64,000 bases of DNA from the NCBI GenBank assembly GCA_934435205.1, contig CAKSAK010000001.1:542243-606242 (forward strand). Direction: 5' to 3'. Positions 50,375 to 64,000 of this stretch are shown here, one piece after another (positions within the stretch are counted from its first letter, which is position 1; every line of letters begins with the position of its first letter). The DNA comes from an uncultured Ruminococcus sp. Lineage in GTDB: Bacteria; Bacillota; Clostridia; Oscillospirales; Ruminococcaceae. The notes below the pieces were generated by a model that did no database searches, had not been told where the DNA came from, and was given only the letters and a program-made list of their open reading frames with translations. Both the position numbers and the translations under genes were made by a program.

Positions 50375-52132
50375 TCAAAGAGTTTTTATAACGTCCTCAG
50401 CTATCTGCTCAGGAGTAAGGTGATTTTCTTTCAGCACCTCGGCAGGGTCATAGCGGTCATAGAACTTCTTTTCAAGTCCGAAGCAAAGGGTCTTTACATG
50501 GCTGTCGCCGTAAAATCTTGCTATCTTTTCGCCAAAGCCGCCCTCAAGAACGCCGTCCTCAAGAGTGATAACTGTCTTGTGGCCAGCCTTAAGGCTTTCA
50601 AGCATTTCATTGTCAATGCCTGTGATATAGTAAGGATTTATAACAGTAGCCTTGACGCCTGTCTTTTCCTCGATAAGCTTTGCGGCTTCAACGCCAATGC
50701 CGTAGAATGAACCCAGAGCGATAACAGCAACCTGACTGCCCTTCTGTGTCATCTCATACTTGTTGAGCTTTGAAAGATCCTTTGTGAAAGGCTTGCCGTC
50801 TGAATCAAGGCTTGCAGGTACTCTTATTGCAACAGGGTGTTCGTTCTGTTCAAGGGACCAATCCAGCATTGCAAGATACTCTTCCTTTGTGACAGGTGCA
50901 AGATAAACAAGCTCAGGGATATTTGATATCATCGGTATATCGTAAATTCCAAGGTGAGTAACGTCATTCATTCCGTAAACCGAAGCCGCAAAAACAGCTA
51001 TTGTAACAGGACTTTTATTTATGCAAACGTCCTGAGAAAGCTGGTCGTAGGTACGCTGTAAGAACGAGCTGTAAACGCCGTAGAAAGGCTTTCCGCCGTT
51101 CTTTGCTATACCTGAGGCAAGTGCCATTGCGTGTTCCTCTGCAATGCCAACGTCCATAAACTGCTTGCCTGCTTTCTTTCTGATGTCAGGTGTAAAGCCG
51201 AAAACTGTCGGGGTAGCGGAGGTTATAGCACAAACGGACTTGTCAGCCTGCATTTTTTCAAGAAGATAATCGCAGGTAACAGAACCGTAATCCTCGCCCT
51301 CAGAATTGTAAAGGGACTTACCGGTTTCAGGGTCGAATGGCATATGCCAGTGCCATGTTTCCTTATCCTTTTCCGCAGGAGCATAGCCCTTGCCCTTTTG
51401 TGTTACGATGTGAACAACAACAGGCTTTTTGCTGTCCTTTACTTCCTCAAAAGCCTCAATAAGCGAAGGGATATCGTTGCCGTCCTTAACGAAAACATAG
51501 TCAAGACCCATTGCCTTGAAAAGGTTACATTCAGCCTTGCCCTCGGTATCACGGAGAAGCTTTAGATTTCTGTACATACCGCCGTGGTTTTCGGCAATAG
51601 ACATATCGTTATCGTTCACAACGATAATAAAGTTTGTATCCATTTCCCCTGCAAAGTCGATACCCTCCAGAGCTTCACCACCGCTGAGAGAACCGTCACC
51701 GATAACAGCAATAACATTGCCCTCCTCGTCCTTGAGATCTCTAGCCTTTGCAAGACCGCTTGCAAGGCTCACAGAAGTGGAAGTATGGCCAACCGTAAAA
51801 AAGTCATGCTCGCTCTCCTCTGGGTTTGTGTAGCCTGAGATATCATCGAACTTGTCAGCGTCAAGGTAGGAATCCTTTCTGCCTGTGAGCATTTTATGTG
51901 GATAGCTCTGATGTGAAACGTCAAAAACTATCTTGTCCTTGGGGGACTCAAAAACATAGTGCATTGCGATAGTGGCTTCCACCATGCCGAAGTTAGGACC
52001 AAAGTGACCGCCATGCTTGCTGAGCCTGAAAAGCAGAGCCTTTCGCATTTCCCCAGCCAGCACAGTCATTTCATCAACAGTGAGCTTTTTAACGTCCGCA
52101 GGTGAGTTTATTTTTTCAAGATACATTTTCAT
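50375..52132 (-). CDS. dxs: 1-deoxy-D-xylulose-5-phosphate synthase
   Basis: TPP-binding GGHFGPNFGMVEATIAMHYVF and DVSHQSYPHKMLTGR motifs. An alternative ATG at 52126 has better RBS spacing. Confidence 0.9.
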   Translation of the reverse strand: MKMYLEKINSPADVKKLTVDEMTVLAGEMRKALLFRLSKHGGHFGPNFGMVEATIAMHYVFESPKDKIVFDVSHQSYPHKMLTGRKDSYLDADKFDDISGYTNPEESEHDFFTVGHTSTSVSLASGLAKARDLKDEEGNVIAVIGDGSLSGGEALEGIDFAGEMDTNFIIVVNDNDMSIAENHGGMYRNLKLLRDTEGKAECNLFKAMGLDYVFVKDGNDIPSLIEAFEEVKDSKKPVVVHIVTQKGKGYAPAEKDKETWHWHMPFDPETGKSLYNSEGEDYGSVTCDYLLEKMQADKSVCAITSATPTVFGFTPDIRKKAGKQFMDVGIAEEHAMALASGIAKNGGKPFYGVYSSFLQRTYDQLSQDVCINKSPVTIAVFAASVYGMNDVTHLGIYDIPMISNIPELVYLAPVTKEEYLAMLDWSLEQNEHPVAIRVPASLDSDGKPFTKDLSKLNKYEMTQKGSQVAVIALGSFYGIGVEAAKLIEEKTGVKATVINPYYITGIDNEMLESLKAGHKTVITLEDGVLEGGFGEKIARFYGDSHVKTLCFGLEKKFYDRYDPAEVLKENHLTPEQIAEDVIKTL

Positions 52133-52292
52133 TTCCTCCTGTTTTGCTTATAATTTTTCTTAGCTTTAGCTTACTTATATTGTACCACCTGGAGTTAGCT
52201 CCAAGTCAACAGGTTGCAGAGATATTTTACATTTTATTAACAATCAGCCTAACAAAAAAGCACGATCATGCGCCGTGCTTAGTATATTTCTC

Positions 52293-52360: not shown

Positions 52361-52546
52361 ATGGAATACAAAGTTATAGACATAAGTGAAGAAGATTACG
52401 GCTGCGAGGGCATACCTGAGGGCAGCGAACTCATGTGCAGCGTTTTGCTTGAAAGCTCTGACGGCACACAAAAGTGGGTGAAAATGGCTGACAGATATCT
52501 CAGAGAAAACGACATTGATATAGGCAGTGTCATCACCGCAGACTAG
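52361..52546 (+). CDS. Small acidic hypothetical protein (61 aa)
   Basis: Own promoter and RBS. Its 3' end overlaps the 3' end of the convergent 52543-53229 gene by 4 nt. Confidence 0.35.
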   Translation: MEYKVIDISEEDYGCEGIPEGSELMCSVLLESSDGTQKWVKMADRYLRENDIDIGSVITAD

Positions 52547-53229
52547 CCTGCGTCCCCCGGGATATCACGCATTATCCATGCAAGCTGTTCTTCTGTAGGC
52601 TCTTCTATCTCGTAGCCGTTGACATGATCGCCCTTGAAACATCTTTGATACAGCTCCACCCATGCAAATGTTGACAGTTTGCAATCTGCGAAGTCTTCCT
52701 TTTCACCGTTGTAAGGCAGATCTTCAGGATAACAGGTCTTGATGATAGCATTTCCATAAGGGGTACAGTCATCGAACTTACCCGAAAAAAAGCTTTCACT
52801 GCACACTCCGCTCAATGAGTATCTTGCCACAAGATATTTTTCGCCCTCTTCATAAGGGTGCTTTTTAAACGCTATCTGCGCCAGCTCGACAGTAGCTTCT
52901 GCGGCGTATATAGGACAAGGAATTAAATATCCGTTGTGAAGCTCAAAGATCTTGTCCTTGTAATGAAAAGTCTTTCGCTTTTCGATAGTGCCATATTCTG
53001 CATACTGAAAAATGTTCAGTTCAGGGTCATCGGAGTAATAGTCGGTGACATTTTCCCCTGCCTTACTGCGGAAATAGCGTTCTTTCTGTGCTTCGAGCTT
53101 GCCCCATTCCACATTTTCATCAGAGAAATAATTGCGTTCAAATTCGTCTATATCCTCCGTAAAAAATGAAGCCGTGCCGCTTGTGCATGAGGGGCAGTTT
53201 GCGTCAAATAAGGTTATTTTGTATATCAT
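52543..53229 (-). CDS. Hypothetical Cys-containing cytoplasmic protein
   Basis: GGAAAGGA RBS. 228 aa with no recognisable family motif; CPSC near the N-terminus. Confidence 0.45.
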   Translation of the reverse strand: MIYKITLFDANCPSCTSGTASFFTEDIDEFERNYFSDENVEWGKLEAQKERYFRSKAGENVTDYYSDDPELNIFQYAEYGTIEKRKTFHYKDKIFELHNGYLIPCPIYAAEATVELAQIAFKKHPYEEGEKYLVARYSLSGVCSESFFSGKFDDCTPYGNAIIKTCYPEDLPYNGEKEDFADCKLSTFAWVELYQRCFKGDHVNGYEIEEPTEEQLAWIMRDIPGDAG

Positions 53230-53338
53230 ATGAAATTCCTTTCCTAGAAGCGATAAAAATAAGCCGCAAACGTTTCTATATCATCATTATAGCATTATCC
53301 ATATCACTTTGTCAAACAAAAGAAAAGGATCAAATAGA

Positions 53339-54091
53339 TCATTCCTTCAAAGCACTGCTATCTGGCTGCAAACAGATATCGCAAATGACGACCTCCTCGC
53401 CCTCTGAACATTCTGCAATAACATTGCCCAAGGGGTCTGCGGTAATGCTTCCACCGAAAAGCTTCAGTTCTTCAAACTGACCGAACATATTCACCGAACA
53501 AAGATAAATACCGTTTTCTTTTGCGTGGGAAGTAGTCATTTCCTTGAAAAGAGCCTTGTCCTGCTCTCTCCATGCGCATGGGCAAAGCACCAGCTCTGCA
53601 CCCATTTTGGCACATTCCGACGCAGGCTCGGAGAAATTATTGTCAAAGCATATTATCACGCCCACCTTGCCGAAGTCGGTTTCCACCGTGATATAGCCGC
53701 CATCAGATGTAAAATATTTTCCTTCATCACCGAACATATGCTGTTTGCTGTAAAAATAAGCCTGTCCGTTTTTGTCGGTAAGGACTGCGCCATTGAGCAC
53801 GCCCCCGTTGTTAGCCCGTAGCATTACCCCTGCGCATATGGCAACGCCAAGCTCGCTTGACAGCTCTTTCAGCCTTGTGACAGTTTCACCGTCACGCTCC
53901 TCGCAAAGCTCTTCAAGGTGCTTTCCAAGCACAGGAAGATAATATCCACAGCCAAAAAGCTCGGGCAGACACATTATCTGCGCACCCTGCTCCGCTGCGC
54001 TTCTTATAAGCTTCTCCGCTCTGTCAAGGTTATACTCCTTGTCAAGAAGCCTTGAAGCTGTTTGTATCATTGCAAGTCTGACTTTGCTCAT
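53339..54091 (-). CDS. Carbon-nitrogen hydrolase (nitrilase-superfamily amidase)
   Basis: Glu (CLPELF), Lys and Cys (VIICFDNNF) catalytic-triad contexts. Start at MSKVRL, 8 nt after AGGAG. Confidence 0.8.
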   Translation of the reverse strand: MSKVRLAMIQTASRLLDKEYNLDRAEKLIRSAAEQGAQIMCLPELFGCGYYLPVLGKHLEELCEERDGETVTRLKELSSELGVAICAGVMLRANNGGVLNGAVLTDKNGQAYFYSKQHMFGDEGKYFTSDGGYITVETDFGKVGVIICFDNNFSEPASECAKMGAELVLCPCAWREQDKALFKEMTTSHAKENGIYLCSVNMFGQFEELKLFGGSITADPLGNVIAECSEGEEVVICDICLQPDSSALKE

Positions 54092-54124
54092 TTTTATCAC
54101 TCCTGTCGGATAGTTTTAACGCCC

Positions 54125-55351
54125 CTATAAAAACAGCTTCACTGCATTGTTGCACACAAGTTCAAAGCTTTCTATAGGCGTAAATTCAAGGGGCGAATGG
54201 CTTTTTCCGCCAATGCTTGGCATAAATATCATCGCCGTTGGTATAACATTTGCAAAAGCCTTTGCGTCATGACCTGCCCAGCTGTAAAGCTCCATTGTGT
54301 CAGGCATTTCAAGGGCTTTTATTGCCGATATCATATCCTTGTCAAATAGCTTTACCGGTGTATACGTCTCAGCTGTTATCTCGGTCTTTACGCCGTAGCT
54401 TTCTTCAAGTCTCTTCACAAAGGTTTTGAACTCCGCTGCCGTTGCTTGTGACAGGCTGTCGTCTGCTGAGCGATAATCTATCACAAGCTCAGTTTCACCC
54501 GAGATAACATTGTGTATATTCGGGCTGTTGTGAAGTCTTGCCACTGTGCAAACAAGGTCGCCGCTCTTTTTCTGACCCGTTTCCCAGACGTGAGTTATGA
54601 GTGCCGCCGCTGCCGCAAGAGAGTCCTGCCTGCCTTTCATAAACGTAGGGCCTGCGTGGTCTGAACTGCCTGTGAATTTCACGAATATCCTGCCAATGCC
54701 CACAACTCCGCAAACTATTCCAGCCTGCTTATGCTCGGTCTCAAGGACGTTTCCCTGCTCAACGTGTATCTCTAGCCAGCTTCTGTAACAGTTCTTTGCC
54801 CAGCCGCAATCACTGCCAAATGTGATATCCTTGAACAGTCTGCAATCCCCTTGCAGGTCTGCGATATTTTTGCCCTCGGCATTTCTAAATCCAAGGCATT
54901 GCTCCGCTGTCATATCCCCTGTCATAAACCTTGCGCCGAAATAGCCTTTCTGACAAATTGCGCCCTCCTCATCGGCGGTGGCGATGACTTCGATAGGATG
55001 CTTTGGCGCAATGCCGTTTTCGTGAAGCATCGATACCATTTCCAATCCGCAGACAATGCCCGCAACGCCGTCATACTTGCCTGCGTTTTTCACGCTGTCA
55101 AGGTGTGAGCCCACCGCAAAAGGCTTTTCGCCGCTGTTCAGGGGGTCGTAACGGCCGATAAGATTTCCAAAGCTGTCCATTCGGCAAGTCATTCCTGCAA
55201 GAGCAAATTCCTTTTTGAGATAGTCCACAGCGTCCGCCCAAGCGGCAGAATATGTTCGCCTTGTGATCTCGCTGTCTATCTCCGTGAATGAGCTTATCTC
55301 GTCTATCCTGCGTTGCATTCTGTTTTTATTTGATAAAAGAGCCTTTTTCAT
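54125..55351 (-). CDS. M20-family N-carbamoyl-amino-acid amidohydrolase (allantoate amidohydrolase / beta-ureidopropionase type)
   Basis: AmaB/HyuC-type architecture. Metal-binding His/Asp/Glu contexts (GSHLDSV, ADEEG). 408 aa. Confidence 0.75.
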   Translation of the reverse strand: MKKALLSNKNRMQRRIDEISSFTEIDSEITRRTYSAAWADAVDYLKKEFALAGMTCRMDSFGNLIGRYDPLNSGEKPFAVGSHLDSVKNAGKYDGVAGIVCGLEMVSMLHENGIAPKHPIEVIATADEEGAICQKGYFGARFMTGDMTAEQCLGFRNAEGKNIADLQGDCRLFKDITFGSDCGWAKNCYRSWLEIHVEQGNVLETEHKQAGIVCGVVGIGRIFVKFTGSSDHAGPTFMKGRQDSLAAAAALITHVWETGQKKSGDLVCTVARLHNSPNIHNVISGETELVIDYRSADDSLSQATAAEFKTFVKRLEESYGVKTEITAETYTPVKLFDKDMISAIKALEMPDTMELYSWAGHDAKAFANVIPTAMIFMPSIGGKSHSPLEFTPIESFELVCNNAVKLFL

Positions 55352-55371
55352 AATATTTCCTCTTTTCTAAT

Positions 55372-56721
55372 TCACTTTGTATTTGAATATTCCCAAACCT
55401 TTTCTCCGCCTGCATATAACGCCTCGACCCTGCTGTGAAGCTTTGTGTTGCCGTATATCACCCCATTGTGAGCGACTTTTGTCAGCATATTTTTCTCGTC
55501 CATAACATATGGCTGACAGTTCATATCCAGCACCGCAAGGTCGGCTTTGAAGCCCTCTTTAATAAGCCCTTTGTCCATTATGCCGAAGCGCTTGCAGGCA
55601 TTATATGAACTAAGCTCCGCCGATTTTTCTATGGTCAGCCTGCCCATTTTGACAAGCTCAAAAAGCAGCCGAAGTGACATTTCTATTCCCGGCAACCCGT
55701 CCGCCGAAGCCCATACAGAGCCATGGGGGGCTTTTTCATCAGGGGTGAAAGGTGCGTGGTCACTGCCAAGATAAAAGAAGTCGCTGTGCGCCACGATATC
55801 AAGAAGCTCGTCACGATCTTCTCGGCTTCTGAACGGTGGCTTCATTCGGGCATATCCTCCTTGACACGCCATATCTTCATCGCAGTAAAAAAGATAATGC
55901 AGAGTAGTTTCGCCGCAGATATCTACTCCACGCTGCCTTGCGGCTATAATAAGCCTTGCAGCCTTTGCGGTGCTGACGTGGGCAACATTGACCTTGCAGC
56001 CTGTTTTCTCTGCACACCTTATGGCTGTTTCCACCGCCTTTATCTCGGAGATATCAGGGTGTGAGCTGAAATATGCTCCTGCGCCGTCAGCGCCCTGTGC
56101 TTTGAGCCTTGCGGTCTCACGATTGATGATGTCATAGTCCTCACAATGGATAGTAAGTGAAAGACCGGTCTGCTTCACCGCCGCCATTATCTTTTCAAGC
56201 GCCTGCTCGTCAGGAGCGCAAAGCCCCACAAATTCACATTCTCGACCTTTCAGCGGTGGGTTCATAAAAGTCTTGAAGCCCACCGCTCCGCACTCCGCAA
56301 GCTCTGGGAGTCTATCAAGGTTATCAAAGCCTGCTCCAGCATACATTCTGAAATCTGTTATGCTGTCACGGAGCATTTCCGCCCTGCGCTTTTCAAAAGA
56401 AGCCTTATCCACCACAGGGGTCTTGCCGCCCGGCATTTCAAAGAACGTTCCCACGCCACCAGACGCCGCAGCGGTCGAGCCCGAGCGAAAGTCCTCACGA
56501 TAGGCAAATCCGCCGCCCCTGATGTGGGTGTGGGTGTCGATCATTGCAGGGATAACAAGCCGTCCTGAAAGATCTGCGCTGCGCTTTGCGTCCTCAAGCT
56601 TTGCACCATTCTCAGCGACTTGCGTTATGATACCGTCCTTTATGCCGATATCAGCGCTTCTTATGCCGTTTTTGTCGCAAAGCTTTGCATTTAAAATATT
56701 CAGGTCATTAAAAGCTTTCAT
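55372..56721 (-). CDS. Dihydropyrimidinase/hydantoinase-type cyclic amidohydrolase
   Basis: DTHTHI metal-binding HxH. Carbamylated-Lys context GFKTFM. Start ATG overlaps the preA stop (ATGA). Confidence 0.8.
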   Translation of the reverse strand: MKAFNDLNILNAKLCDKNGIRSADIGIKDGIITQVAENGAKLEDAKRSADLSGRLVIPAMIDTHTHIRGGGFAYREDFRSGSTAAASGGVGTFFEMPGGKTPVVDKASFEKRRAEMLRDSITDFRMYAGAGFDNLDRLPELAECGAVGFKTFMNPPLKGRECEFVGLCAPDEQALEKIMAAVKQTGLSLTIHCEDYDIINRETARLKAQGADGAGAYFSSHPDISEIKAVETAIRCAEKTGCKVNVAHVSTAKAARLIIAARQRGVDICGETTLHYLFYCDEDMACQGGYARMKPPFRSREDRDELLDIVAHSDFFYLGSDHAPFTPDEKAPHGSVWASADGLPGIEMSLRLLFELVKMGRLTIEKSAELSSYNACKRFGIMDKGLIKEGFKADLAVLDMNCQPYVMDEKNMLTKVAHNGVIYGNTKLHSRVEALYAGGEKVWEYSNTK

Positions 56722-57914
56722 TTTCTCACCATTCTTATTGCGCCAACAGGACATATCTGAGAGCAAAGTCCGCAGCCGTCACATTTTTCCTTGCTGCAAA
56801 AAGCTTTCTTGTCTGTGATATCTATTGCGCTGTAACCATTGTCTTCACAGCTTATCTTGCACTTACCACAGCCTATGCACTTTTCTGTGTCAATGCAAGC
56901 ACACATTTTATATGCCCTGTTGAGCTGGTTGTGCTTTACGATATTTTCAAGAGCCTTTCCGCAGAAGTCTGAAATAGTTTCATATCCCGACTTTTCCATA
57001 TACTCCACAAGCCCTTTGGACATATTTTTCACAATGCCATAACCGCTTTCCATTACTGCCGAACACACCTGCAAGGTGCTTGCACCGACGGCAATGAACT
57101 CTGCGCAATCGTGCCAATCGTATATGCCTCCCGTTGCCGATATAGGCAGACCCGTTGCCATTGAAAGCTGTGCAACGCTTCGCAAAGCTATGGGCTTTAG
57201 CGGTCGGCCGCTCAGACCTTGAAATGCGCTTTTTCCGTCAACGCTGTTGAAAGGCACCATTGTTTCAAGGTCAATGCCAGGCAGAGAGCTTATGGTGTTT
57301 ATCGCTGTCAGTGCTCTCGCTCCCCCACGTTTTGCCGCAAGACCCTTTGAAGGCAGGTCAGCGGTGAGTGCTGTAAGCTTTGGCATAACAGGCTTTGAAG
57401 TGGTGGAAGTTACCCAGCCCACCACCTTTTCTATCATAACGTCATTTGCGCCGATAGCAGCTCCGCCGCCGCTCTCAGCCTGTCCGTGAGAGCAGGATAG
57501 ATTCAGCTCAAAAGCGTCCGCACCTGCTTGATCAAATGCTTTGGTCAGCTCTTTCCACTCGCTTTCATGAAGCTCGTCAGAATGGATAAGGCTGGATATC
57601 ACCGTCTTTTCAGGAAATCTTTCTTTCAGCCAGCGTATACCCTTGACAAATTCTTCGATAGTTTTTGGGCTTCCGATCTCGAAATTCGTGAAAGCTTCTA
57701 TCTTTCCGTTTCTTTTCACCGCCCTTATCCTCGGGTTGACGTTTCGCTTTATGAACCTAGGGGAATACTGTGCGGTCTTTAAAACTGCACCGCCCCAGCC
57801 TGCTTCAAAGGCTCTTGCGATCTGATCGAAATTTGTTGTTGGCGGCGCAGAAGCAAGAATGAATGGGCTGTCCATTTCTATCCCTGCGAAATTTGTTCTG
57901 AGTGTTGCTGACAT
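56718..57914 (-). CDS. preA: PreA-type dihydropyrimidine dehydrogenase catalytic subunit (DHOD-like TIM barrel plus C-terminal 2x[4Fe-4S] ferredoxin)
   Basis: FMN-barrel motifs. C-terminal CIGCGKCKISC...CDGCGLCSQICP. ATG at 57914 is 9 nt after GGAG; the longer ORF begins with TTG. Confidence 0.75.
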   Translation of the reverse strand: MSATLRTNFAGIEMDSPFILASAPPTTNFDQIARAFEAGWGGAVLKTAQYSPRFIKRNVNPRIRAVKRNGKIEAFTNFEIGSPKTIEEFVKGIRWLKERFPEKTVISSLIHSDELHESEWKELTKAFDQAGADAFELNLSCSHGQAESGGGAAIGANDVMIEKVVGWVTSTTSKPVMPKLTALTADLPSKGLAAKRGGARALTAINTISSLPGIDLETMVPFNSVDGKSAFQGLSGRPLKPIALRSVAQLSMATGLPISATGGIYDWHDCAEFIAVGASTLQVCSAVMESGYGIVKNMSKGLVEYMEKSGYETISDFCGKALENIVKHNQLNRAYKMCACIDTEKCIGCGKCKISCEDNGYSAIDITDKKAFCSKEKCDGCGLCSQICPVGAIRMVRK

Positions 57915-57939
57915 ATATCTCAACTCCAAATACTATATC

Positions 57940-58563
57940 TTATTTTTTTGCATTGGTCTGTGTTTTGCCGAAAGCTTCTATTCGGTGGCTGATGTAATCG
58001 TCAAATTCCTGCAAGATCTCTTCGGTGGACTTTTCTCTGTCGTCCATCATAAGACCGTATACATGGGGTGCTTCAAGACCTCTGTCCGCAAGCTCTCCCA
58101 GCAGTTCTTCCATAAAAATCCCCGGCTTGTCAACAAGCACTCTGGGAACTTCTTTCGGTCTGCCGCCCCAATCCTCGCAGAAACTCGACTTTGTTATGCC
58201 GCAGCTTGGCGAGCCGTCGCAAGTGAGAATGGCGGTGACTTCATAGCCGACCTTGTAGTAATTTGCAATGTAATCTGCCGTTTGTGCTGCAAGCTGTCTG
58301 CAAAGACGGCGGTAGCCTGCGTTGTCGTAAAGATTTCGGCTTGTCCACCAGCGCTGGTTGCCCATATGCAAAACCTCTGGACAGGGCATTTGCATAACGC
58401 CGAAGCCATATTTATCAAGTATCTTCACTACATCGGAGAACATTCCGCTGTATCTTGCAAATTCAAACACCTTGTTATTGGCGTTCAGCAGGCAGTTTGA
58501 AACAAAAACGATCCTTTTACTGCGTTTGTCCTGCTTGTGCAAAGTCTTTTTAGTCTCTGCCAT
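57940..58563 (-). CDS. DUF523-like protein, a putative [4Fe-4S] protein related to the thiouracil desulfidase TudS family
   Basis: Three conserved-context Cys: VSNCLL, MPCPEV and DGSPSCG, matching my recollection of DUF523 signatures. 207 aa. Confidence 0.45.
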   Translation of the reverse strand: MAETKKTLHKQDKRSKRIVFVSNCLLNANNKVFEFARYSGMFSDVVKILDKYGFGVMQMPCPEVLHMGNQRWWTSRNLYDNAGYRRLCRQLAAQTADYIANYYKVGYEVTAILTCDGSPSCGITKSSFCEDWGGRPKEVPRVLVDKPGIFMEELLGELADRGLEAPHVYGLMMDDREKSTEEILQEFDDYISHRIEAFGKTQTNAKK

Positions 58564-58697
58564 AAATCATTCTTCTTTCCTGCTTATTTGTTATCCAGCC
58601 CCTTTTGTGAGCCGTCTATTCCCATAGGCAAGAATGGAAGAGACAGCTCGGGCTGTATATATCACGGAGGAATTTAGCTTAATAGCTTGCTATTTTT

Positions 58698-59756
58698 TTA
58701 CTTCAGACCTTCAACGGCAGCCTTCCAATAGCTGTCATCATAAACCTTTGCAGGCTTTTCCTTGATGATATCGAACTTAAGGCAAGCGTCAACAGTTGAA
58801 CCGATCTTGTCGTCGCCAAGTCTGAGCATTTTCTCTGCTTCGGTTCCGTCAGGCGCTGCAAGTGAAGCAACCTCCTTGGCGGAAGCTTTCTGATGTTCAA
58901 GTGTTGTACTGCTCTGATCTACATAGTTCCATACGATCTCGGCAGCCGCCTCAGGGTCTGTGCAGGCGTCTGACCAGCCCTTCATGGAGGCTCTCATAAA
59001 GCCTTCCATAAGCTTGTCGCTGCCGTCCTGTGCAGCCCAGTCTGTATTTGCAATGATAGCGTCCTCGAGCATTCCGCAATCATAATCTTCAAAGTTTATC
59101 ACGTTGATATCGTCCTTTGAAAGTCCCGACTCCTGCAATACGATATACTCGTTATATATATTTGCGCTGGCAACGTCGATCTCATCATTGAGAAGTGCGT
59201 CCATTGTGTAATCCTGGCTAACGATAGTGCAATCCTTATCCTTGTCGATACCGTACTTATCCAGCAACGAATAGATAGGATAATCTGCTGTGCCGACCCA
59301 AGCGCCGATCTTCTTGCCCTTCAAGTCCTCAGGTGTCTTGATACCCGATGACGCCTTTGAGCAAAGCATGAGCGAGCCCTCTTGGAACACCTGTCCTATT
59401 TCAACGATAGGATATCCCTGTTCCTCATATGGCAGCAGACCGTAGAGGTTTGCGATACCGATATCGGCAGCACCGATAGATACCTGCTGTGCAGAAACGA
59501 TATCGCTTCCGCCTGAGATGATGTTAAGATCAATGCCCTCGTCCTCATAATAGCCCTTTTCATAAGCCACATAAAAGCCCATAAACTGAACGCTCGGCAG
59601 CCACTTGAGCTGGAAATCCACTGTTGTAAGGGCCTTGCCGTTCTTTGTCACTGTGGCATTGCTTGAACCCTCGGAACTGCCACAGGAAGTAAGACCTGCT
59701 GAAAGAAGGATACCTGCTGTCAGGGCGGATAATGTTTTCATCAATACTTTTTTCAT
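58698..59756 (-). CDS. ABC transporter substrate-binding lipoprotein, NMT1/THI5-like (NitT/TauT family)
   Basis: Lipobox LTSCG. NMT1-like LKWLPSVQFMGFYVAYEKGYYEDEGIDL. Confidence 0.75.
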   Translation of the reverse strand: MKKVLMKTLSALTAGILLSAGLTSCGSSEGSSNATVTKNGKALTTVDFQLKWLPSVQFMGFYVAYEKGYYEDEGIDLNIISGGSDIVSAQQVSIGAADIGIANLYGLLPYEEQGYPIVEIGQVFQEGSLMLCSKASSGIKTPEDLKGKKIGAWVGTADYPIYSLLDKYGIDKDKDCTIVSQDYTMDALLNDEIDVASANIYNEYIVLQESGLSKDDINVINFEDYDCGMLEDAIIANTDWAAQDGSDKLMEGFMRASMKGWSDACTDPEAAAEIVWNYVDQSSTTLEHQKASAKEVASLAAPDGTEAEKMLRLGDDKIGSTVDACLKFDIIKEKPAKVYDDSYWKAAVEGLK

Positions 59757-59830
59757 AATTAACTCTCCTTATAAATTGAAAATTGGTTGTTTGCTTTTTA
59801 TTACTATCACTATAACTATCAGTTACAGCT

Positions 59831-60616
59831 TTAAGACCTTTGTGAAGCGTGCCATTTAAGAGCGACACGCTCGATTATGGAAATGATCGCATACATAAGC
59901 ACACCGCAAAGGGTAGCGACCAAGATGTATGCCCAAGCAACGGACATCTGCGAAAGCTTTATCGAAGCTGTGAGCTGATAGCCTATGCCCTTGTAGGAAG
60001 TGAAAAATTCGCTGCATATTGCAGACATAAGTCCTGTTGTTGTGCTGACCTTCAAGGCTGTGAGCATATACGGCAGACAGTTAGGAAGCTGGAGCTTGAA
60101 AAAAGTCTCGATCTTCCTTGCTGCACATATCTGCATAAGATCCTTTGAGAACGGAGGAAGCTCCGTCATACCTCTGTAAGCATTCAGCGTCATTGAAGCC
60201 ATGCTGAATACTGCAACGACCGCCACCTTTGAAGCCATTTCCATTCCGAACCAGTTGTTCATTATGGAAGCCATTGCTATCATAGGGATAGCGTTCACGG
60301 CAGTAACAATGCTTATTCCGCCCACGCCAAGCTTCGGGAACGCTGCTGCAAATACTGCGATAACAAAGCCGATAAGCGAACCAACTAATATTCCCACAAC
60401 GGCTTCTTTGAGCGTCCACACTGTGTTTGACATTATTACCGAGAAATCGTCGTTAAGTGTACGGATTATATCAGAGGGGTAGGAAAGCTGATAAGGCTTC
60501 AAGCCAAGGAGATAATGAAGTCCTCCCTGCTGCCAGGCGAAAATTATTATCACGCCCAGCACAAGCGAAAGTATCATATCCTGCGTCTTTTTCCAAAGGC
60601 GTTTAGCTTTGCTCAT
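59831..60616 (-). CDS. ABC transporter permease (NitT/TauT family)
   Basis: Six TM helices with the EAA loop. ATG at 60616 follows AGGAAGAGAGG and overlaps the upstream permease gene by 14 nt. Confidence 0.8.
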   Translation of the reverse strand: MSKAKRLWKKTQDMILSLVLGVIIIFAWQQGGLHYLLGLKPYQLSYPSDIIRTLNDDFSVIMSNTVWTLKEAVVGILVGSLIGFVIAVFAAAFPKLGVGGISIVTAVNAIPMIAMASIMNNWFGMEMASKVAVVAVFSMASMTLNAYRGMTELPPFSKDLMQICAARKIETFFKLQLPNCLPYMLTALKVSTTTGLMSAICSEFFTSYKGIGYQLTASIKLSQMSVAWAYILVATLCGVLMYAIISIIERVALKWHASQRS

Positions 60617-61436
60617 TTTCCGCACCTCTCTTCCTTTTGAATGTTTTAAGTGTTATAACTCCCGGTGTCGTGAGCTTTTCTATAAGCACCACCAACAGAT
60701 ATGTTGAAATACCCATAAGTGAAGCCATTACCACTGAAGCCCAGAAGTTTATCGCACCTGTTGCGCCATAGTAAAGCGAACTGAGTATCTTGAAACCTAT
60801 GCCCTCGCTTGAACCCATCATCTCAACCAGCACCGCTGCCGTTACTGCGCTTGGAGCGGCAAGCTTCAAGCCTGTGAAAAGATACTGTCTTGAAAATGGG
60901 AACATAAGCTTTGTGTAAACTGTTATACGCCTTGCGGCAAGTATCCTCATAAGGTCTTTCTTGTCGTTGTCAACGCTTCTCAGACCTTGATACATATTCA
61001 CTGCGACCGGAAAGAACGTTATGAACGCCGCAAGCACCGTTCTAGACATTCCCGAGTCCCTTACCACCGTGTAAACGATCGGCGCAAGAGCAAGTATAGG
61101 TATCATCTGCAAGACGATCATATAAGGAAGTATCATCTTTTCAAGAGACTTGTGAAAGCTCATAAATATAGCAATGCAAATGCCTATTACCGAACCGATC
61201 ACGAAGCCTTGGAGTGCCTTTGTGAATGTGAACATCACTGCTGAAAAAAGGCTGTCAAAGTCGGTGAATATCTTTGCTATCACCGAATGGAGATATGGCA
61301 GCTTCTTCACCGCCATAGGGTCTTTGAGCATCTTGTCAAGATAGAATGCGATAAACTCCCATAATCCCATAAGAAGTGCAAGACAGACGATGATAGAGAT
61401 AGTCTTGTTGGTTTTCTTTTCTTTCACATTTGTCAC
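60603..61436 (-). CDS. ABC transporter permease (NitT/TauT family)
   Basis: BPD-transport inner-membrane component. Start overlaps the ATPase stop (ATGA). Confidence 0.8.
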   Translation of the reverse strand: MTNVKEKKTNKTISIIVCLALLMGLWEFIAFYLDKMLKDPMAVKKLPYLHSVIAKIFTDFDSLFSAVMFTFTKALQGFVIGSVIGICIAIFMSFHKSLEKMILPYMIVLQMIPILALAPIVYTVVRDSGMSRTVLAAFITFFPVAVNMYQGLRSVDNDKKDLMRILAARRITVYTKLMFPFSRQYLFTGLKLAAPSAVTAAVLVEMMGSSEGIGFKILSSLYYGATGAINFWASVVMASLMGISTYLLVVLIEKLTTPGVITLKTFKRKRGAENEQS

Positions 61437-62200
61437 ACTCCTTCAAAACAGCCTCTGATATGCTCCACAAGTGCGTTACATTCAGGGGTATATCGCATTT
61501 CCTTTCTTCTCGGTCTCGGAAGAGTTATATCCACCATTGCGGAAAGTCTGCCTGGGTGAGGTGAGAACACTGCCACCTTATCAGAAAGATAGACAGCTTC
61601 CTGAATGTTATGTGTAATGAAAATAACTGTTTTGTGGGTCTGTCTCCAGATCTTTAAGATATCATCGTTGAGCTTCTCTCTTGTGAACTCGTCAAGAGCT
61701 GAGAAAGGCTCGTCCATTAAAAGTATAGGCGGGTCGAGCGCTAACGCTCTTGCGATACCCACACGCTGCTGCATACCGCCGCTTAGCTGATACGGATAAT
61801 GGTCGGCATAGTCGGTAAGACCCACAAGCTCAAGCACCTCGTCTGAACGCCTTTTCTGCTCCTTCTTGCTCATCTTTTGCAGCTCAAGCGGCAGGCAGAT
61901 ATTTTTTCTGACCGTCCGCCAATCGAACAATACTGCGCTCTGGAACACCATTCCGAAAGAGTGGCTGAGACGTTCCTCTCTCGGTGTGTATCCGCTTATG
62001 ATGACCTCGCCCTTTGTGGGCTGCAAAAGGTCGCAGATTATTCTGAGCATTGTGCTCTTGCCGCAGCCCGACGGACCGACCAGTGAGATAAAATCGCCTT
62101 TATCAATGTTAAAGCTGACATTTTTTAGCGCCTCGGTAGGTTCGCCCTTGGCGTTGAGATAGGTCATACTGACGTCCTTGATAAGTATTTGCGTCTTCAA
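61433..62200 (-). CDS. ABC transporter ATP-binding protein (NitT/TauT family)
   Basis: GPSGCGKST, LSGGMQQRVGIARAL, LLMDEPFSALD. Probable TTG start 9 nt after AAGGAG. Confidence 0.85.
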   Translation of the reverse strand: MKTQILIKDVSMTYLNAKGEPTEALKNVSFNIDKGDFISLVGPSGCGKSTMLRIICDLLQPTKGEVIISGYTPREERLSHSFGMVFQSAVLFDWRTVRKNICLPLELQKMSKKEQKRRSDEVLELVGLTDYADHYPYQLSGGMQQRVGIARALALDPPILLMDEPFSALDEFTREKLNDDILKIWRQTHKTVIFITHNIQEAVYLSDKVAVFSPHPGRLSAMVDITLPRPRRKEMRYTPECNALVEHIRGCFEGV

Positions 62201-62294
62201 ACAAAACAACTCCTTCTAAATAAAAAGGGCGCAGAGGAAAGCTGCTTTTCTGCATTTTCCTTCTGCGCTCCATTGCGTAGTCTCTTTTTTATGT

Positions 62295-63701
62295 TTAGCC
62301 TGCGTCGTTTACAAGCTTCATAAGCTCTGACATATCCTTCTGAGCTTCCAAATCCTCAACGAATGAGATTATCTTTTCAGTTCTCTCAGGGTCGGTGTAA
62401 ACTCTGTTTGCAAGAGTTCTGAACTTGTTCTTTACGTCCTCGAATGTAACAGGGTTTCTCCAGTCGCCCTTTGGGTCATCGATAACTGATTCATACTCAG
62501 TGCCGTCTTTCATTGTGACTTTTACTGCGCTTGAATAATGCTCAGGGTATCTTGCCTCGAATTCTGGGTCTTCAACGACCGTTGTTGAAGCAATGAGCTT
62601 CTTTACCAGCGGATCGTCAATGTACTTGACGTCAAATTCATCAACTGTTACCTTGCCGTTCACAAAGGCGATAGCTGCCTGGAATGGCATACTGAACTGG
62701 AGATCAACGATATTCTTAGGGTGCCACTTGCGTTCTTCTGCAAGCAGTCTCATTGTATATTTCGATGAACGTATCTCTATCTTTTCAATGTCCTCTGCCT
62801 TTGGGTGGTACTTTGCAACGATATCCAGACAAGCGTCAAGATGTCCGCCTGAATAACGGCAGCAAGGATATACCTTGATACTTGATGAAGCAAATTCCCA
62901 CTTGTCGCCAAGGCCCTCTGTAATAAACTTTGTGTCGAAATGATCGTAATATGAATAAGCGTGGAGAATACCGTCCTTGCCCTCATAGATATCCGACGGA
63001 CCATTGAAGCCCTTGTCGGCAAGATATGCGGCGATGATAGAGTTCATTGCTGGGTGGCCTGCCTGAAAACGCTTTGTAAAAGAACCCTCAGAGTTCCAAG
63101 CCATAAGACCTGCAACGGTGCTTCCTGCAATGCCCTGAACATAAACCGTCTTCTGCTTGTCAAAGCCCATGAGCTTTGCTGCGCTCACAGCCGCACCCAT
63201 TGAACCGCAGGTGCTTGTAGGGTGGAAGCCCTGATAGTACATATCGCCAAGATATGCACTGCCAAGTCGGCAAACAACTTCATTTCCTAAGCATACGGCC
63301 TCAATGAACTCCTTGCCGCTCTTTTTGAGCTTCTCAGCAAGTGCAAAGCTTGCAGGATATGTAGCAGGCGACGGGTGAGCGTTCGACTCATTGTGATCGT
63401 CAACGAAATCGTAACCGTAGCACTGGATAGCGTTTGCGAAAGCCGCATTCGGAGCAGAGACTTTCTTTGACGAGCCCACGATAGTACATTCAGCAGGACC
63501 CTCAAGCTCCTCAGCAGTCTCTCTTGCGATCTTGCTTGTGATGATATTTCGTGTGCCAACCATTGAAGCAAGCACGTCAAGTGTCAGCGTCTTTGCGTGA
63601 GCCACCGCATAGTCGGGCAGATCCTCGAACTTAAGTCCCGTGGAAAGCTCTGCGATAATTTCAGCGATCTTTTTCTCATTTGTTTTTGCAGTTGTAGTCA
63701 T
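62295..63701 (-). CDS. MmgE/PrpD-family protein (2-methylcitrate dehydratase / cis-aconitate decarboxylase family)
   Basis: Family-typical length and N-terminus; about 468 aa from the ATG at 63701. Confidence 0.75.
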   Translation of the reverse strand: MTTTAKTNEKKIAEIIAELSTGLKFEDLPDYAVAHAKTLTLDVLASMVGTRNIITSKIARETAEELEGPAECTIVGSSKKVSAPNAAFANAIQCYGYDFVDDHNESNAHPSPATYPASFALAEKLKKSGKEFIEAVCLGNEVVCRLGSAYLGDMYYQGFHPTSTCGSMGAAVSAAKLMGFDKQKTVYVQGIAGSTVAGLMAWNSEGSFTKRFQAGHPAMNSIIAAYLADKGFNGPSDIYEGKDGILHAYSYYDHFDTKFITEGLGDKWEFASSSIKVYPCCRYSGGHLDACLDIVAKYHPKAEDIEKIEIRSSKYTMRLLAEERKWHPKNIVDLQFSMPFQAAIAFVNGKVTVDEFDVKYIDDPLVKKLIASTTVVEDPEFEARYPEHYSSAVKVTMKDGTEYESVIDDPKGDWRNPVTFEDVKNKFRTLANRVYTDPERTEKIISFVEDLEAQKDMSELMKLVNDAG

Positions 63702-63778
63702 AATAAACAGCGTCCTTTCATTGAATTGTAGCAAATCGTATTATTGAAATGTTGATATGGTGTATTGTATATATTGTT

Positions 63779-64000
63779 CTAAGCTTTGGCTTGCAAAGCC
63801 TGTGATGAATGTTTTGACCTGAATGGTATGATATTTATTGCCGAGCCGCATATTACAAGCACCGCACCTGCGATCATATGCGGGGTAACATCTTCGTGGA
63901 GGAATATATAAGCCGCTGCCATTGCAATAACAGGCTTAATAAAGAACGATACCGAAGCCGCCGAAGGACCGCCTGCGGCGATCGCCTTGAGAAATGCGAT
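63779..64000 (-). CDS. EamA/DMT-family transporter, C-terminal fragment (gene continues past the window end)
   Basis: Minus-strand ORF ending at TAG (63779-63781). Hydrophobic C-terminal helices typical of EamA transporters. Confidence 0.5.
   Translation of the reverse strand: MAFLKAIAAGGPSAASVSFFIKPVIAMAAAYIFLHEDVTPHMIAGAVLVICGSAINIIPFRSKHSSQALQAKA

What the first reader, a model, noticed from the sequence alone, without database searches (positions are those of the whole stretch)
57940..58563. DUF523/TudS-like putative Fe-S protein embedded in the pyrimidine-catabolic cluster
Seen: a 207-aa protein with three Cys in contexts VSNCLL, MPCPEV and DGSPSCG. Established (from memory, not searched): the DUF523 family contains the [4Fe-4S]-dependent 2-thiouracil/4-thiouracil desulfidase TudS, whose ligands sit in similar SACLLG, CPE and SPSCG contexts. 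Inference: the enzyme could convert thiolated pyrimidines such as s2U or s4U bases into substrates for the downstream reductive pathway. That would be an undescribed coupling of thiouracil desulfuration with reductive ring cleavage.
Basis: partly seen in the sequence, partly recalled or inferred. Interest (0 to 1): 0.55.

Follow-up and report, generated by a model that had tools for sequence, protein, structure and literature searches.

The report
TudS-like Fe-S enzyme in pyrimidine operon
This gut Ruminococcus gene encodes a distant, uncharacterised relative of the iron-sulfur enzyme that strips sulfur from thiouracil, and it sits as an optional add-on inside an anaerobic pyrimidine-breakdown operon, which suggests (untested) that it detoxifies and feeds in sulfur-bearing pyrimidines.

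Summary
A 207-aa ORF lies at 57940-58563 on the minus strand, with Cys in VSNCLL, MPCPEV and DGSPSCG. It misses Pfam DUF523's cutoff (20.3 vs 34.7 bits) but passes NCBIfam NF045597, "CD3072 family TudS-related putative desulfidase" (137.7 vs 130). Foldseek's top five PDB hits are all TudS. hhalign against canonical DUF523 gives 96% probability, with all three Cys ligands and Glu/Ser/Ser in register. TudS's substrate-stacking tyrosines are replaced, and an extra conserved Cys (C88) appears.

The gene is 10 bp upstream of a PreT-less PreA (PydAc type), followed by a cyclic amidohydrolase, an M20 carbamoylase and a CN-hydrolase. Upstream lie a ThiY-like ABC importer and an IDS-epimerase/CAD-like PrpD homolog. 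The linkage holds in 23/31 species-level loci across several phyla. It is clade-specific: 0/37 loci of the wider family show it. It is also facultative: five PrpD/PreA clusters elsewhere lack the gene.

The characterised C. difficile TudS is the canonical paralog, not CD3072. The most likely role is an accessory hydrolytic desulfidase for thiolated pyrimidines entering catabolism (about 0.45). The substrate is unproven and probably differs from TudS's. The family is already curated; the operon coupling appears undescribed.

The parts
57940..58563 (-). CD3072-family TudS-related putative [4Fe-4S] desulfidase (207 aa). Predicted ligands are C24, C61 and C121. Catalytic E63, S118 and S120 are present, plus a family-specific C88.
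   Evidence: ORF and motifs. NF045597 137.7 bits > 130. PF04463 20.3 bits < 34.7. Foldseek top 5 hits are TudS. hhalign 96% probability. Conservation.
56718..57929 (-). PreA/PydAc-type dihydropyrimidine dehydrogenase subunit (FMN domain plus 2x[4Fe-4S]). No PreT partner occurs anywhere in the window.
   Evidence: NF006183 420 bits > 335. DHO_dh plus Fer4_21. DPD residues N609/E611/N668/S670/C671/N736/T737 are conserved. No PreT hit in the window. PreT-less, ferredoxin-dependent PydAc is known (PMC7332683).
55372..56766 (-). Cyclic amidohydrolase (allantoinase/dihydroorotase/dihydropyrimidinase superfamily), the presumed ring-opening enzyme.
   Evidence: Best hits are allantoinase (309 bits), DHOase (249) and D-hydantoinase (202), all below equivalog cutoffs. 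Amidohydro_1.
54125..55351 (-). M20 hydantoinase/carbamoylase-family amidase (presumed decarbamoylase).
   Evidence: TIGR01879 277.5 bits > 204.
53339..54100 (-). CN-hydrolase (nitrilase superfamily), the last gene of the operon.
   Evidence: PF00795 155.7 bits. A perfect promoter for the next gene lies at 53315-53286.
58698..59756 (-). NMT1/THI5-type lipoprotein solute-binding protein of the ABC importer.
   Evidence: PF09084. Nearest structures are 4nmy and ThiY (FAMP-binding, 3ix1).
59831..61436 (-). Two ABC permease genes (59831-60625 and 60603-61436).
   Evidence: BPD_transp_1.
61433..62209 (-). ABC transporter ATPase.
   Evidence: ABC_tran.
62295..63734 (-). MmgE/PrpD-family protein of the IDS-epimerase/cis-aconitate-decarboxylase branch. 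It is the most conserved operon partner.
   Evidence: Pfam. PDB: IDS epimerase 1.7e-33, CAD 3.6e-31, true PrpD only 8.7e-6. It is 67-99% identical across 22/31 loci.
63782..64000 (-). C-terminal 73 residues of an EamA-family transporter gene. The operon start lies beyond the window edge.
   Evidence: tblastn 96% identity to L001 EamA residues 232-304. EamA domain.

Best explanation
The gene encodes an oxygen-sensitive [4Fe-4S] hydrolase of the CD3072/PF27735 family, a sister family of the thiouracil desulfidase TudS. By analogy, three cysteines (C24, C61, C121) hold the cluster and leave one iron free. The thiocarbonyl sulfur of the substrate binds that iron. Glu63 activates water to attack the thiocarbonyl carbon, and Ser118 and Ser120 relay protons. 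Sulfur leaves as sulfide, giving the oxo compound.

In this Ruminococcus clade the gene is an accessory module plugged into an anaerobic pyrimidine-catabolic operon. That operon comprises an importer, a ferredoxin-type PreA/PydAc, a cyclic amidohydrolase and decarbamoylases. The enzyme's most likely job is to convert thiolated pyrimidines that enter with ordinary pyrimidines into oxo forms. Candidates are 2- or 4-thiouracil, or thio-analogues of the dihydro or ureido intermediates. Conversion makes them non-toxic and lets them pass down the pathway.

Shown: homology, conservation of catalytic residues, operon embedding, and clade-specific, facultative distribution. Inferred: cluster binding, desulfidase chemistry, the identity of the substrate, and the physiological role.
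For: - Family membership: NF045597 scores above its cutoff. Homologs carry PF27735 '2-thiour_desulf_put'.
- Fold: the AF2 model has pLDDT 80.6, and TudS entries 6z96/6z92/6z93/6zw9 are the five best PDB matches at prob 0.99-1.0.
- Profile-profile comparison with canonical DUF523: 96.1% probability, E 3.5e-9. Register is C24~C10, C61/E63~C43/E45, S118/S120/C121~S101/S103/C104, K31~R17. The roles of these residues in TudS come from PMC10611767.
- These positions are conserved 58-65/65 across the family.
- Operon context: the gene is 10 bp upstream of PreA, whose DPD pyrimidine-site residues are conserved.
- Co-location with PreA in 23/31 species-level loci from Oscillospiraceae, Negativicutes, Marispirochaeta, Caldisericota and Tepidanaerobacteraceae.
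- The remaining loci place it beside a uridine-phosphorylase-like gene, a CN-hydrolase, a beta-alanine-type aminotransferase and an Fe-ADH.
- Facultative presence: five homologous PrpD/PreA clusters lack it, and it persists where PreT is present or PreA is absent. That pattern fits a feeder or detoxifier.
- 4-Thiouracil is toxic through Upp-dependent salvage, and a C. difficile TudS both detoxifies it and makes it usable (PMC12210855).
Against: - No biochemical data exist for any member of this family.
- TudS's uracil- and ribose-stacking Tyr18 and Tyr110 align to invariant Val32 and to Ser127, so the binding mode or substrate differs.
- C88 is conserved 59/65, and some members have only C24, C61 and C88. 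If C88 ligates the fourth iron, there would be no open site for sulfur.
- C. difficile appears to have both a canonical TudS (primer encodes MILVSAC) and CD3072. That implies non-redundant functions.
- Thiolated pyrimidines are scarce nutrients, yet the protein is as conserved as PreA (58-75% vs 57-66% identity).
- No sulfur-handling gene is linked.
- The operon's most conserved member, the PrpD-like protein, has no role in this model.
Confidence: 0.45

Rival explanations
1. The protein has the same fold and the same Fe-S Lewis-acid machinery, but a non-sulfur substrate. It would catalyse a hydrolytic or hydro-lyase step on a carboxylated or otherwise modified pyrimidine, or on a ring-opened intermediate. 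Examples are deamination, dehydration or another C-X cleavage. This step would belong to an undescribed pathway variant that also uses the PrpD-like enzyme.
For: - The stacking tyrosines of TudS are lost. Conserved basic residues (R71 65/65, R85 56/65, K/R76) and the extra C88 suggest a different, anionic ligand.
- The protein is strongly conserved and adjacent to the PrpD-like gene in most loci.
- Related clusters contain aconitase-type, PrpF, ICL and HMGL-type enzymes that imply polycarboxylate chemistry not explained by uracil or thymine.
- A canonical TudS coexists with CD3072 in C. difficile (inference).
Against: - The full TudS catalytic set (Glu, Ser, Ser and three Cys) is retained, which is most simply read as retained chemistry.
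- Five homologous PrpD/PreA clusters work without this gene, so it is not an obligatory step.
- It also occurs without PrpD or PreA in the type C loci.
- No candidate reaction is defined.
Confidence: 0.3
2. It is a general thiouridine or thio-UMP salvage enzyme, like stand-alone TudS. It would recycle s4U from the cell's own tRNA turnover, and its operon position would be incidental or merely co-regulated with pyrimidine uptake.
For: - The catalytic residues are identical to TudS, and K31 aligns with the phosphate-binding Arg17.
- TudS enzymes prefer 4-thio-UMP (PMC10611767).
Against: - Synteny with catabolic genes is conserved across phyla.
- The ribose-stacking Tyr110 and base-stacking Tyr18 are not conserved.
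- The protein belongs to a family distinct from canonical TudS, which coexists with it in C. difficile.
- Other clades of the family sit next to importers and hydantoin-utilisation genes, which points to exogenous substrates.
Confidence: 0.1
3. It is a redox or electron-transfer partner. As an Fe-S protein it would deliver electrons to the PreT-less PreA, replacing PreT or ferredoxin.
For: - It lies immediately upstream of PreA (10 bp) in an operon lacking PreT.
- It has four or five conserved Cys in the close clade.
Against: - It is retained in clusters that do have PreT (L021-L025, L026, L031) and in type C loci with no PreA.
- It is absent from PreA clusters lacking PreT (L126, absence confirmed).
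- Conserved Glu/Ser/Ser catalytic residues are not expected of a ferredoxin.
- PydAc is known to use ordinary ferredoxin (PMC7332683).
Confidence: 0.05

Closest known systems
TudS (DUF523, PF04463): [4Fe-4S] thiouracil / 4-thio-UMP desulfidase, PDB 6Z96
   Same: - The fold matches: TudS gives the top five Foldseek hits.
- hhalign gives 96% probability.
- Three Cys ligands, Glu45, Ser101, Ser103 and Pro102 are all in register.
- Both have the SPSCG and CPE motifs.
   Different: - Only 17-18% identity, and below Pfam's gathering score.
- About 50 residues longer, with a C-terminal helix.
- Tyr18 becomes Val, Tyr110 becomes Ser and Arg17 becomes Lys.
- The invariant Thr of TudS's 'DVT' motif is replaced by conserved Cys88.
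- Different genomic context: catabolic operons and importers.
C. difficile TudS (Munneke et al. 2025, Cell Host Microbe; known here only via PMC12210855)
   Same: It is a gut Firmicute enzyme of the same superfamily, and it links thiouracil detoxification to pyrimidine nutrition.
   Different: The characterised enzyme starts MILVSAC, so it is the canonical DUF523 type. CD3072, the namesake of this protein's family, is a different and uncharacterised paralog.
RudS (TudS-DUF1722 fusion), a tRNA s4U de-modifying desulfidase (PMC11417400)
   Same: It has the same catalytic domain superfamily.
   Different: The protein here has no DUF1722 domain. RudS acts on tRNA, whereas the context here is small-molecule catabolism.
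Clostridial Pyd cluster with ferredoxin-dependent PydAc (PMC7332683)
   Same: A PreT-less PreA/PydA is followed by a cyclic amidohydrolase and a decarbamoylase in strict anaerobes.
   Different: The described cluster has no TudS-like or PrpD-like gene. Here the amidohydrolase is closer to allantoinase or DHOase than to dihydropyrimidinase. Sister clusters add carbamoyltransferase with carbamate kinase, aconitase-type and PrpF genes.

Membership tests
TudS / DUF523 (Pfam PF04463) | Score at or above Pfam's gathering threshold | tested here: not met
   20.3 bits vs 34.7; E 5.8e-4; covers 129 of 141 profile positions.
TudS / DUF523 (Pfam PF04463) | Common ancestry and fold with crystallised TudS | tested here: met
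   Foldseek: 6z96/6z92/6z93/6zw9 are ranks 1-5, prob 0.99-1.0, TM (target) 0.53-0.58. hhalign A2 vs canonical DUF523: 96.1% probability, E 3.5e-9, 128 columns.
TudS / DUF523 (Pfam PF04463) | Three Cys ligands of the [4Fe-4S] cluster (Cys10, Cys43, Cys104) | tested here: met
   C24, C61 and C121 are in register and conserved 64/65, 65/65 and 58/65.
TudS / DUF523 (Pfam PF04463) | Catalytic Glu45, Ser101, Ser103 | tested here: met
   E63 64/65, S118 65/65, S/T120 61/65. Residue roles come from PMC10611767.
TudS / DUF523 (Pfam PF04463) | Substrate pocket: uracil stacked between Tyr18 and Pro102, ribose on Tyr110, phosphate on Arg17 | tested here: not met
   Pro102 is kept (P119), but Tyr18 becomes Val32 (invariant in the clade), Tyr110 becomes Ser127 and Arg17 becomes Lys31. 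The mapping rests on the hhalign register.
TudS / DUF523 (Pfam PF04463) | Only three Cys at the cluster, leaving a free iron site | tested here: inconclusive
   An extra C88 is conserved 59/65 and aligns to TudS's invariant Thr. Some members have only C24, C61 and C88.
TudS / DUF523 (Pfam PF04463) | Desulfidase activity on 2- or 4-thiouracil derivatives; [4Fe-4S] content | not testable with these tools
   This needs anaerobic biochemistry.
CD3072 family TudS-related putative desulfidase (NCBIfam NF045597) | Score at or above the curated equivalog cutoff | tested here: met
   137.7 bits vs 130; residues 15-166 cover 140 of 148 profile positions.
Pfam PF27735 (2-thiour_desulf_put) | Match to the family model | not testable with these tools
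   The model is absent from the local Pfam copy. Many homologs at 63-74% identity carry a precomputed PF27735 hit, and the family name is seen.
Reductive pyrimidine degradation (Pyd) cluster, PydAc type | PydA/PreA with conserved pyrimidine site and no PreT | tested here: met
   NF006183 420 bits > 335. DPD active-site residues are conserved. There is no PreT in the window.
Reductive pyrimidine degradation (Pyd) cluster, PydAc type | Dihydropyrimidinase (PydB) | tested here: inconclusive
   A cyclic amidohydrolase is present but falls below every equivalog cutoff. It is closer to allantoinase (309 bits) and DHOase (249) than to D-hydantoinase/dihydropyrimidinase (202 vs cutoff 393).
Reductive pyrimidine degradation (Pyd) cluster, PydAc type | Beta-ureidopropionase (PydC) | tested here: inconclusive
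   Two candidates are present: an M20 amidase (TIGR01879 277.5 bits > 204, subfamily level only) and a CN-hydrolase. Specificity is unknown.

The most novel reading that the evidence does not exclude
The operon may be one version of a widespread, undescribed anaerobic fermentation pathway for a pyrimidine-type ring, possibly a substituted uracil. In sister clusters this pathway conserves energy by phosphorolytic ureide cleavage (carbamoyltransferase plus carbamate kinase). It would process the carbon skeleton through an IDS-epimerase/CAD-like PrpD enzyme, a PrpF isomerase, a LeuCD-type hydratase and ICL or HMGL-type lyases. Within it, the CD3072-family protein would catalyse a new [4Fe-4S]-dependent reaction that differs from thiouracil desulfuration, either acting on a different thio-compound or not involving sulfur at all.
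Probability: 0.25. Interest if true: 0.75.

Novelty: new variant of a known kind. Interest (0 to 1): 0.45.

Why it matters
4-Thiouracil was recently reported to be toxic to gut bacteria, and its detoxification by canonical TudS gives C. difficile a competitive advantage. A second, uncharacterised TudS-like family is wired into pyrimidine-catabolic operons of gut commensals and environmental anaerobes. That would extend this biology from salvage to catabolism, and it could mark a new substrate class for catalytic (non-redox) Fe-S clusters.

The surrounding cluster is arguably more important. It combines a PrpD-like enzyme, PreA and a cyclic amidohydrolase with either a carbamoyltransferase plus carbamate kinase or an M20 amidase, and often aconitase-type and PrpF genes. 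It recurs across many anaerobic phyla and matches no pathway found in the literature searched. The TudS-like gene is therefore a marker for an unexplored part of anaerobic nucleobase metabolism. The practical caveat is that the TudS-related annotation already exists in NCBIfam and Pfam, and nothing here demonstrates activity.

Tried and rejected
- phmmer and family-profile searches against PDB sequences found no significant TudS match. With the broader profile, TudS appeared only at E=0.46, although the motifs were in register. Homology was settled by Foldseek and hhalign instead.
- I tried to measure Cys-Cys geometry in the AF2 model, but the coordinates are not exposed.
- C88 and C121 are never both missing. 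That looked like evidence for alternative ligands, but only 0.65 double losses are expected by chance among 65 sequences. I therefore do not count it as evidence.
- Rfam scan of the window and four loci for a ligand-revealing riboswitch: no hits.
- Literature searches for CD3072, for TudS combined with pyrimidine degradation, for PrpD combined with dihydropyrimidine dehydrogenase, for orotate fermentation and for ErtC or thiohydantoin found no description of this cluster. The reductive uric-acid pathway (PMC12507026) uses a different enzyme set.
- The primary C. difficile TudS paper (PMC11985272) is not held. The gene's identity was inferred from a cloning primer.
- Orotate as the pathway substrate was considered and not favoured. 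The carbamoyltransferase of sister clusters is OTC- or putrescine-type (293 bits) rather than ATCase-type (138 bits), and PreA matches the PreA model far better than the DHODH models.
- A role as a PreT substitute or electron carrier was rejected on distribution.
- The first metagenome scan attempt, with the very diverse alignment A2, failed for lack of conserved stretches. It was repeated with A4.
- Naive longest-ORF clustering was confounded by antisense ORFs in high-GC loci and was replaced by a tblastn panel.

Full report
**Observation.** The minus strand of 57940-58563 carries an ATG-initiated ORF of 207 codons plus a stop. It contains VSNCLL (C24), MPCPEV (C61) and DGSPSCG (C121), as reported. 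It is a real, conserved gene. About 100 homologs of 38-96% identity were found by the indexed search. An exhaustive profile search found 1122 clusters at 50% identity with E<=1e-3, and 641 with E<=1e-10. The closest genomes are uncultured Ruminococcus sp. MAGs (97% and 94% identity).

**Family assignment.** Pfam's DUF523/TudS model (PF04463) matches nearly end to end, but at 20.3 bits it is below the 34.7-bit gathering score. NCBIfam has a dedicated equivalog model, NF045597 "CD3072 family TudS-related putative desulfidase", which the protein passes (137.7 vs 130 bits). Many homologs carry a precomputed hit to PF27735, whose name is "2-thiour_desulf_put". The "TudS-like" reading is therefore already curated in two databases. 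No paper on CD3072 was found.

**Homology to TudS.**
- Sequence searches against the PDB fail or are marginal.
- An AlphaFold2 model (pLDDT 80.6, pTM 0.80) retrieves the TudS crystal structures as its five best PDB matches. Probabilities are 0.99-1.0, target-normalised TM is 0.53-0.58, and identity is 17-18%. Everything below them is unrelated.
- I fetched six canonical DUF523 genes from plasmid records, one about 90% identical to crystallised TudS over the 42-residue query fragment.
- A profile-profile comparison of these with 65 diverse CD3072-family members gave 96.1% probability (E 3.5e-9, 128 columns).
- The register pairs C24 with Cys10, C61/E63 with Cys43/Glu45, and S118/S120/C121 with Ser101/Ser103/Cys104. 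These are the ligands and catalytic residues defined for TudS (PMC10611767).
- Family-wide conservation is C24 64/65, C61 65/65, E63 64/65, S118 65/65, S/T120 61/65 and C121 58/65.

**Differences from TudS.**
- TudS stacks the uracil ring between Tyr18 and Pro102, stacks the ribose on Tyr110, and binds phosphate with Arg17.
- Here Pro is kept (P119), but Tyr18 aligns to an invariant Val32, Tyr110 to Ser127, and Arg17 to Lys31.
- A further Cys, C88, is conserved in 59/65 sequences. It aligns to the invariant Thr of TudS's "DVT" motif.
- Five members have Ser in place of C121, and three of them have only three Cys in total: C24, C61 and C88.
- No sequence lacks both C88 and C121, but this is not statistically meaningful (0.65 expected by chance).

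**The operon in the window.** All genes lie on the minus strand, in this order:
- EamA transporter, of which only the C-terminus is in the window
- PrpD-family protein
- ABC ATPase
- two permeases
- NMT1/ThiY-like binding protein
- the TudS-related gene
- PreA
- cyclic amidohydrolase
- M20 carbamoylase-family amidase
- CN-hydrolase

A perfect sigma-70 promoter for the next, unrelated gene marks the operon's end. Flanking genes are housekeeping functions.

PreA passes its NCBIfam equivalog model (420 bits > 335). It conserves the pyrimidine-site residues of pig DPD, as I recall them from the DPD structures: Asn609, Glu611, Asn668, Ser670, Cys671, Asn736 and Thr737. There is no PreT in the window. 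That corresponds to the ferredoxin-dependent PydAc type already characterised in Clostridium (PMC7332683).

The binding protein's nearest structures belong to the ThiY/THI5 pyrimidine-binding lineage. The PrpD-family protein is far closer to iminodisuccinate epimerase and cis-aconitate decarboxylase (E about 1e-33 and 1e-31) than to true 2-methylcitrate dehydratase (E about 1e-5).

**Conservation of the context.** Among 31 species-level genome loci encoding 58-97% identical proteins, a tblastn panel finds PreA in 23, the PrpD-like gene in 22 and the amidohydrolase in 21. Three architectures recur:
- **Type A (the window):** EamA-PrpD-ABC-TudSrel-PreA-amidohydrolase-M20-CN-hydrolase. It is often preceded by a uridine-phosphorylase-like gene and a Crp-family regulator.
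- **Type B:** NCS1 permease-CN-hydrolase-carbamate kinase-PrpF-PrpD-TudSrel-LeuCD-type hydratase-PreA(-PreT)-amidohydrolase-OTC-type carbamoyltransferase-SSF.
- **Type C (six loci):** Ldh2-LarA-EamA-TudSrel, with a convergent CN-hydrolase, a beta-alanine/GABA-type aminotransferase and an Fe-ADH. It has no PreA or PrpD.

The taxa include Oscillospiraceae, Negativicutes, Marispirochaeta, Synergistaceae, Caldisericota and Tepidanaerobacteraceae.

**Limits of the association.** Two controls matter.
- First, in 37 metagenomic loci of at least 6 kb from the wider family (35-45% identity), none has PreA or PrpD nearby. These clades sit by amino-acid-type or nucleoside/sugar-type ABC importers. In one clade they sit by a hydantoin racemase, a cyclic amidohydrolase and an M20 amidase. 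The pyrimidine-operon link is therefore clade-specific, within a family-wide theme of imported small molecules, in some clades cyclic ureides or nucleosides.
- Second, I examined seven contexts of PrpD-like orthologs at 60-69% identity. Their sources include a deltaproteobacterial and an Anaerolineae assembly. Five carry the PrpD/PreA/carbamoyltransferase cluster, four of them with a recognisable cyclic amidohydrolase, and with or without aconitase-type, PrpF, ICL, HMGL and CoA-ligase genes. None contains a TudS-related sequence.

The TudS-related gene is thus a facultative module. It is neither an obligate step of the PrpD/PreA pathway nor a PreT substitute: it is present alongside PreT and also where PreA is absent.

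**Interpretation.** Three facts together point to an accessory enzyme that broadens or protects pyrimidine catabolism:
- the TudS catalytic apparatus is fully retained;
- the gene is embedded among pyrimidine import and ring-degrading genes;
- its distribution is facultative.

Published work shows that 4-thiouracil is toxic via Upp-dependent incorporation into RNA. It also shows that a C. difficile TudS detoxifies it and makes it usable (PMC12210855, citing Munneke et al. 2025).

The cloning primer for that C. difficile tudS encodes MILVSAC, the canonical DUF523 N-terminus. The characterised enzyme is therefore not CD3072. The family name indicates that C. difficile 630 has a CD3072-type paralog as well, which argues for a distinct substrate.

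Given the altered pocket, I favour a thio-compound other than TudS's preferred 4-thio-UMP. Candidates are free 2- or 4-thiouracil, or thio-analogues of the dihydro or ureido intermediates. A sulfur-free substrate cannot be excluded.

**Unexplained.** The role of the PrpD-like protein and of the polycarboxylate-type enzymes in sister clusters is unknown, as is the true substrate of the pathway. The OTC- or putrescine-type carbamoyltransferase plus a genuine carbamate kinase suggest ATP-yielding phosphorolysis of a primary-carbon ureide such as ureidopropionate.

**Verdict.** The TudS-like assignment is already in databases. The operon coupling appears undescribed in the literature I could search, and it is real but clade-specific and facultative. 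Function remains a prediction.

Noticed in passing
window 53339-64000; loci L021-L031, L122-L124, L126, L127: A recurrent anaerobic gene cluster is found across many phyla. It combines an IDS-epimerase/CAD-like PrpD-family gene with PreA(+/-PreT), a cyclic amidohydrolase and either an M20 amidase or an OTC-type carbamoyltransferase plus carbamate kinase. It often also has a LeuCD-type hydratase, PrpF, ICL/PEP-mutase, HMGL-like lyase, ECH and ADP-forming CoA ligases. No matching pathway was found in the literature searched. It may be more novel than the TudS-like gene itself.
   Followed up: partly
L025:16531-17523 and L025:6371-7297 (also L021-L031, L124, L127): An OTC- or putrescine-type carbamoyltransferase (293 bits, above the OTC cutoff; ATCase only 138 bits) sits with a genuine carbamate kinase next to PreA and the amidohydrolase. 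This suggests phosphorolytic, ATP-yielding cleavage of the ureido intermediate, in place of the hydrolytic M20 step used in the window.
   Followed up: partly
window 53286-53315 (-) and 52543-53229 (-): A perfect sigma-70 consensus promoter (TTGACA-18-TATAAT with TG extension) precedes a 228-aa ORF that has no hit in Pfam or NCBIfam. A terminator-like hairpin follows at 52258-52280.
   Followed up: no
window 56718-57929 (-), residue aligned to pig DPD Ile613: The PreA-like enzyme keeps all recalled DPD pyrimidine-site residues except Ile613, which is Gly (motif FTNFEIGS). This might enlarge the pocket for a substituted pyrimidine.
   Followed up: no
L101, L105, L107, L112: A different clade of the CD3072 family sits beside an Asp/Glu/hydantoin racemase and a Zn-dependent dehydrogenase. 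In L101 and L105 a cyclic amidohydrolase and an M20 amidase are also nearby; in L112 only the amidohydrolase was detected. This is a hydantoin-utilisation set, and it raises the possibility of 2-thiohydantoin-type substrates for that clade.
   Followed up: partly
L012:6636-7148 and 7207-7740: The Ldh2-family gene, which is intact in L011, is split into two ORFs in Clostridium sp. CAG:632. This is a possible frameshift, pseudogene or assembly error.
   Followed up: no
L036 (NZ_AP026896.1): A 4.9-Mb Aeromonas caviae record is filed as a 'plasmid' in the plasmid collection, with only 18 annotated features. It is almost certainly a chromosome. It carries an unannotated TudS ortholog about 90% identical to crystallised TudS.
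   Followed up: no
window 58765-58792 (-): A promoter-like site (TTGACG-16-TATCAT, 10/12) lies inside the 3' end of the binding-protein gene, upstream of the 134-bp gap before the TudS-related ORF. It could be an internal promoter for the TudSrel-PreA-amidohydrolase part of the operon. The number of such sites in the region is not above the shuffled expectation.
   Followed up: no
window 50375-52132 (-): A 585-aa DXP-synthase/transketolase-like gene lies just beyond the operon, with DUF2461, CBS-domain, D-Ala-D-Ala carboxypeptidase and HAD hydrolase genes further on. None is related to the finding.
   Followed up: no
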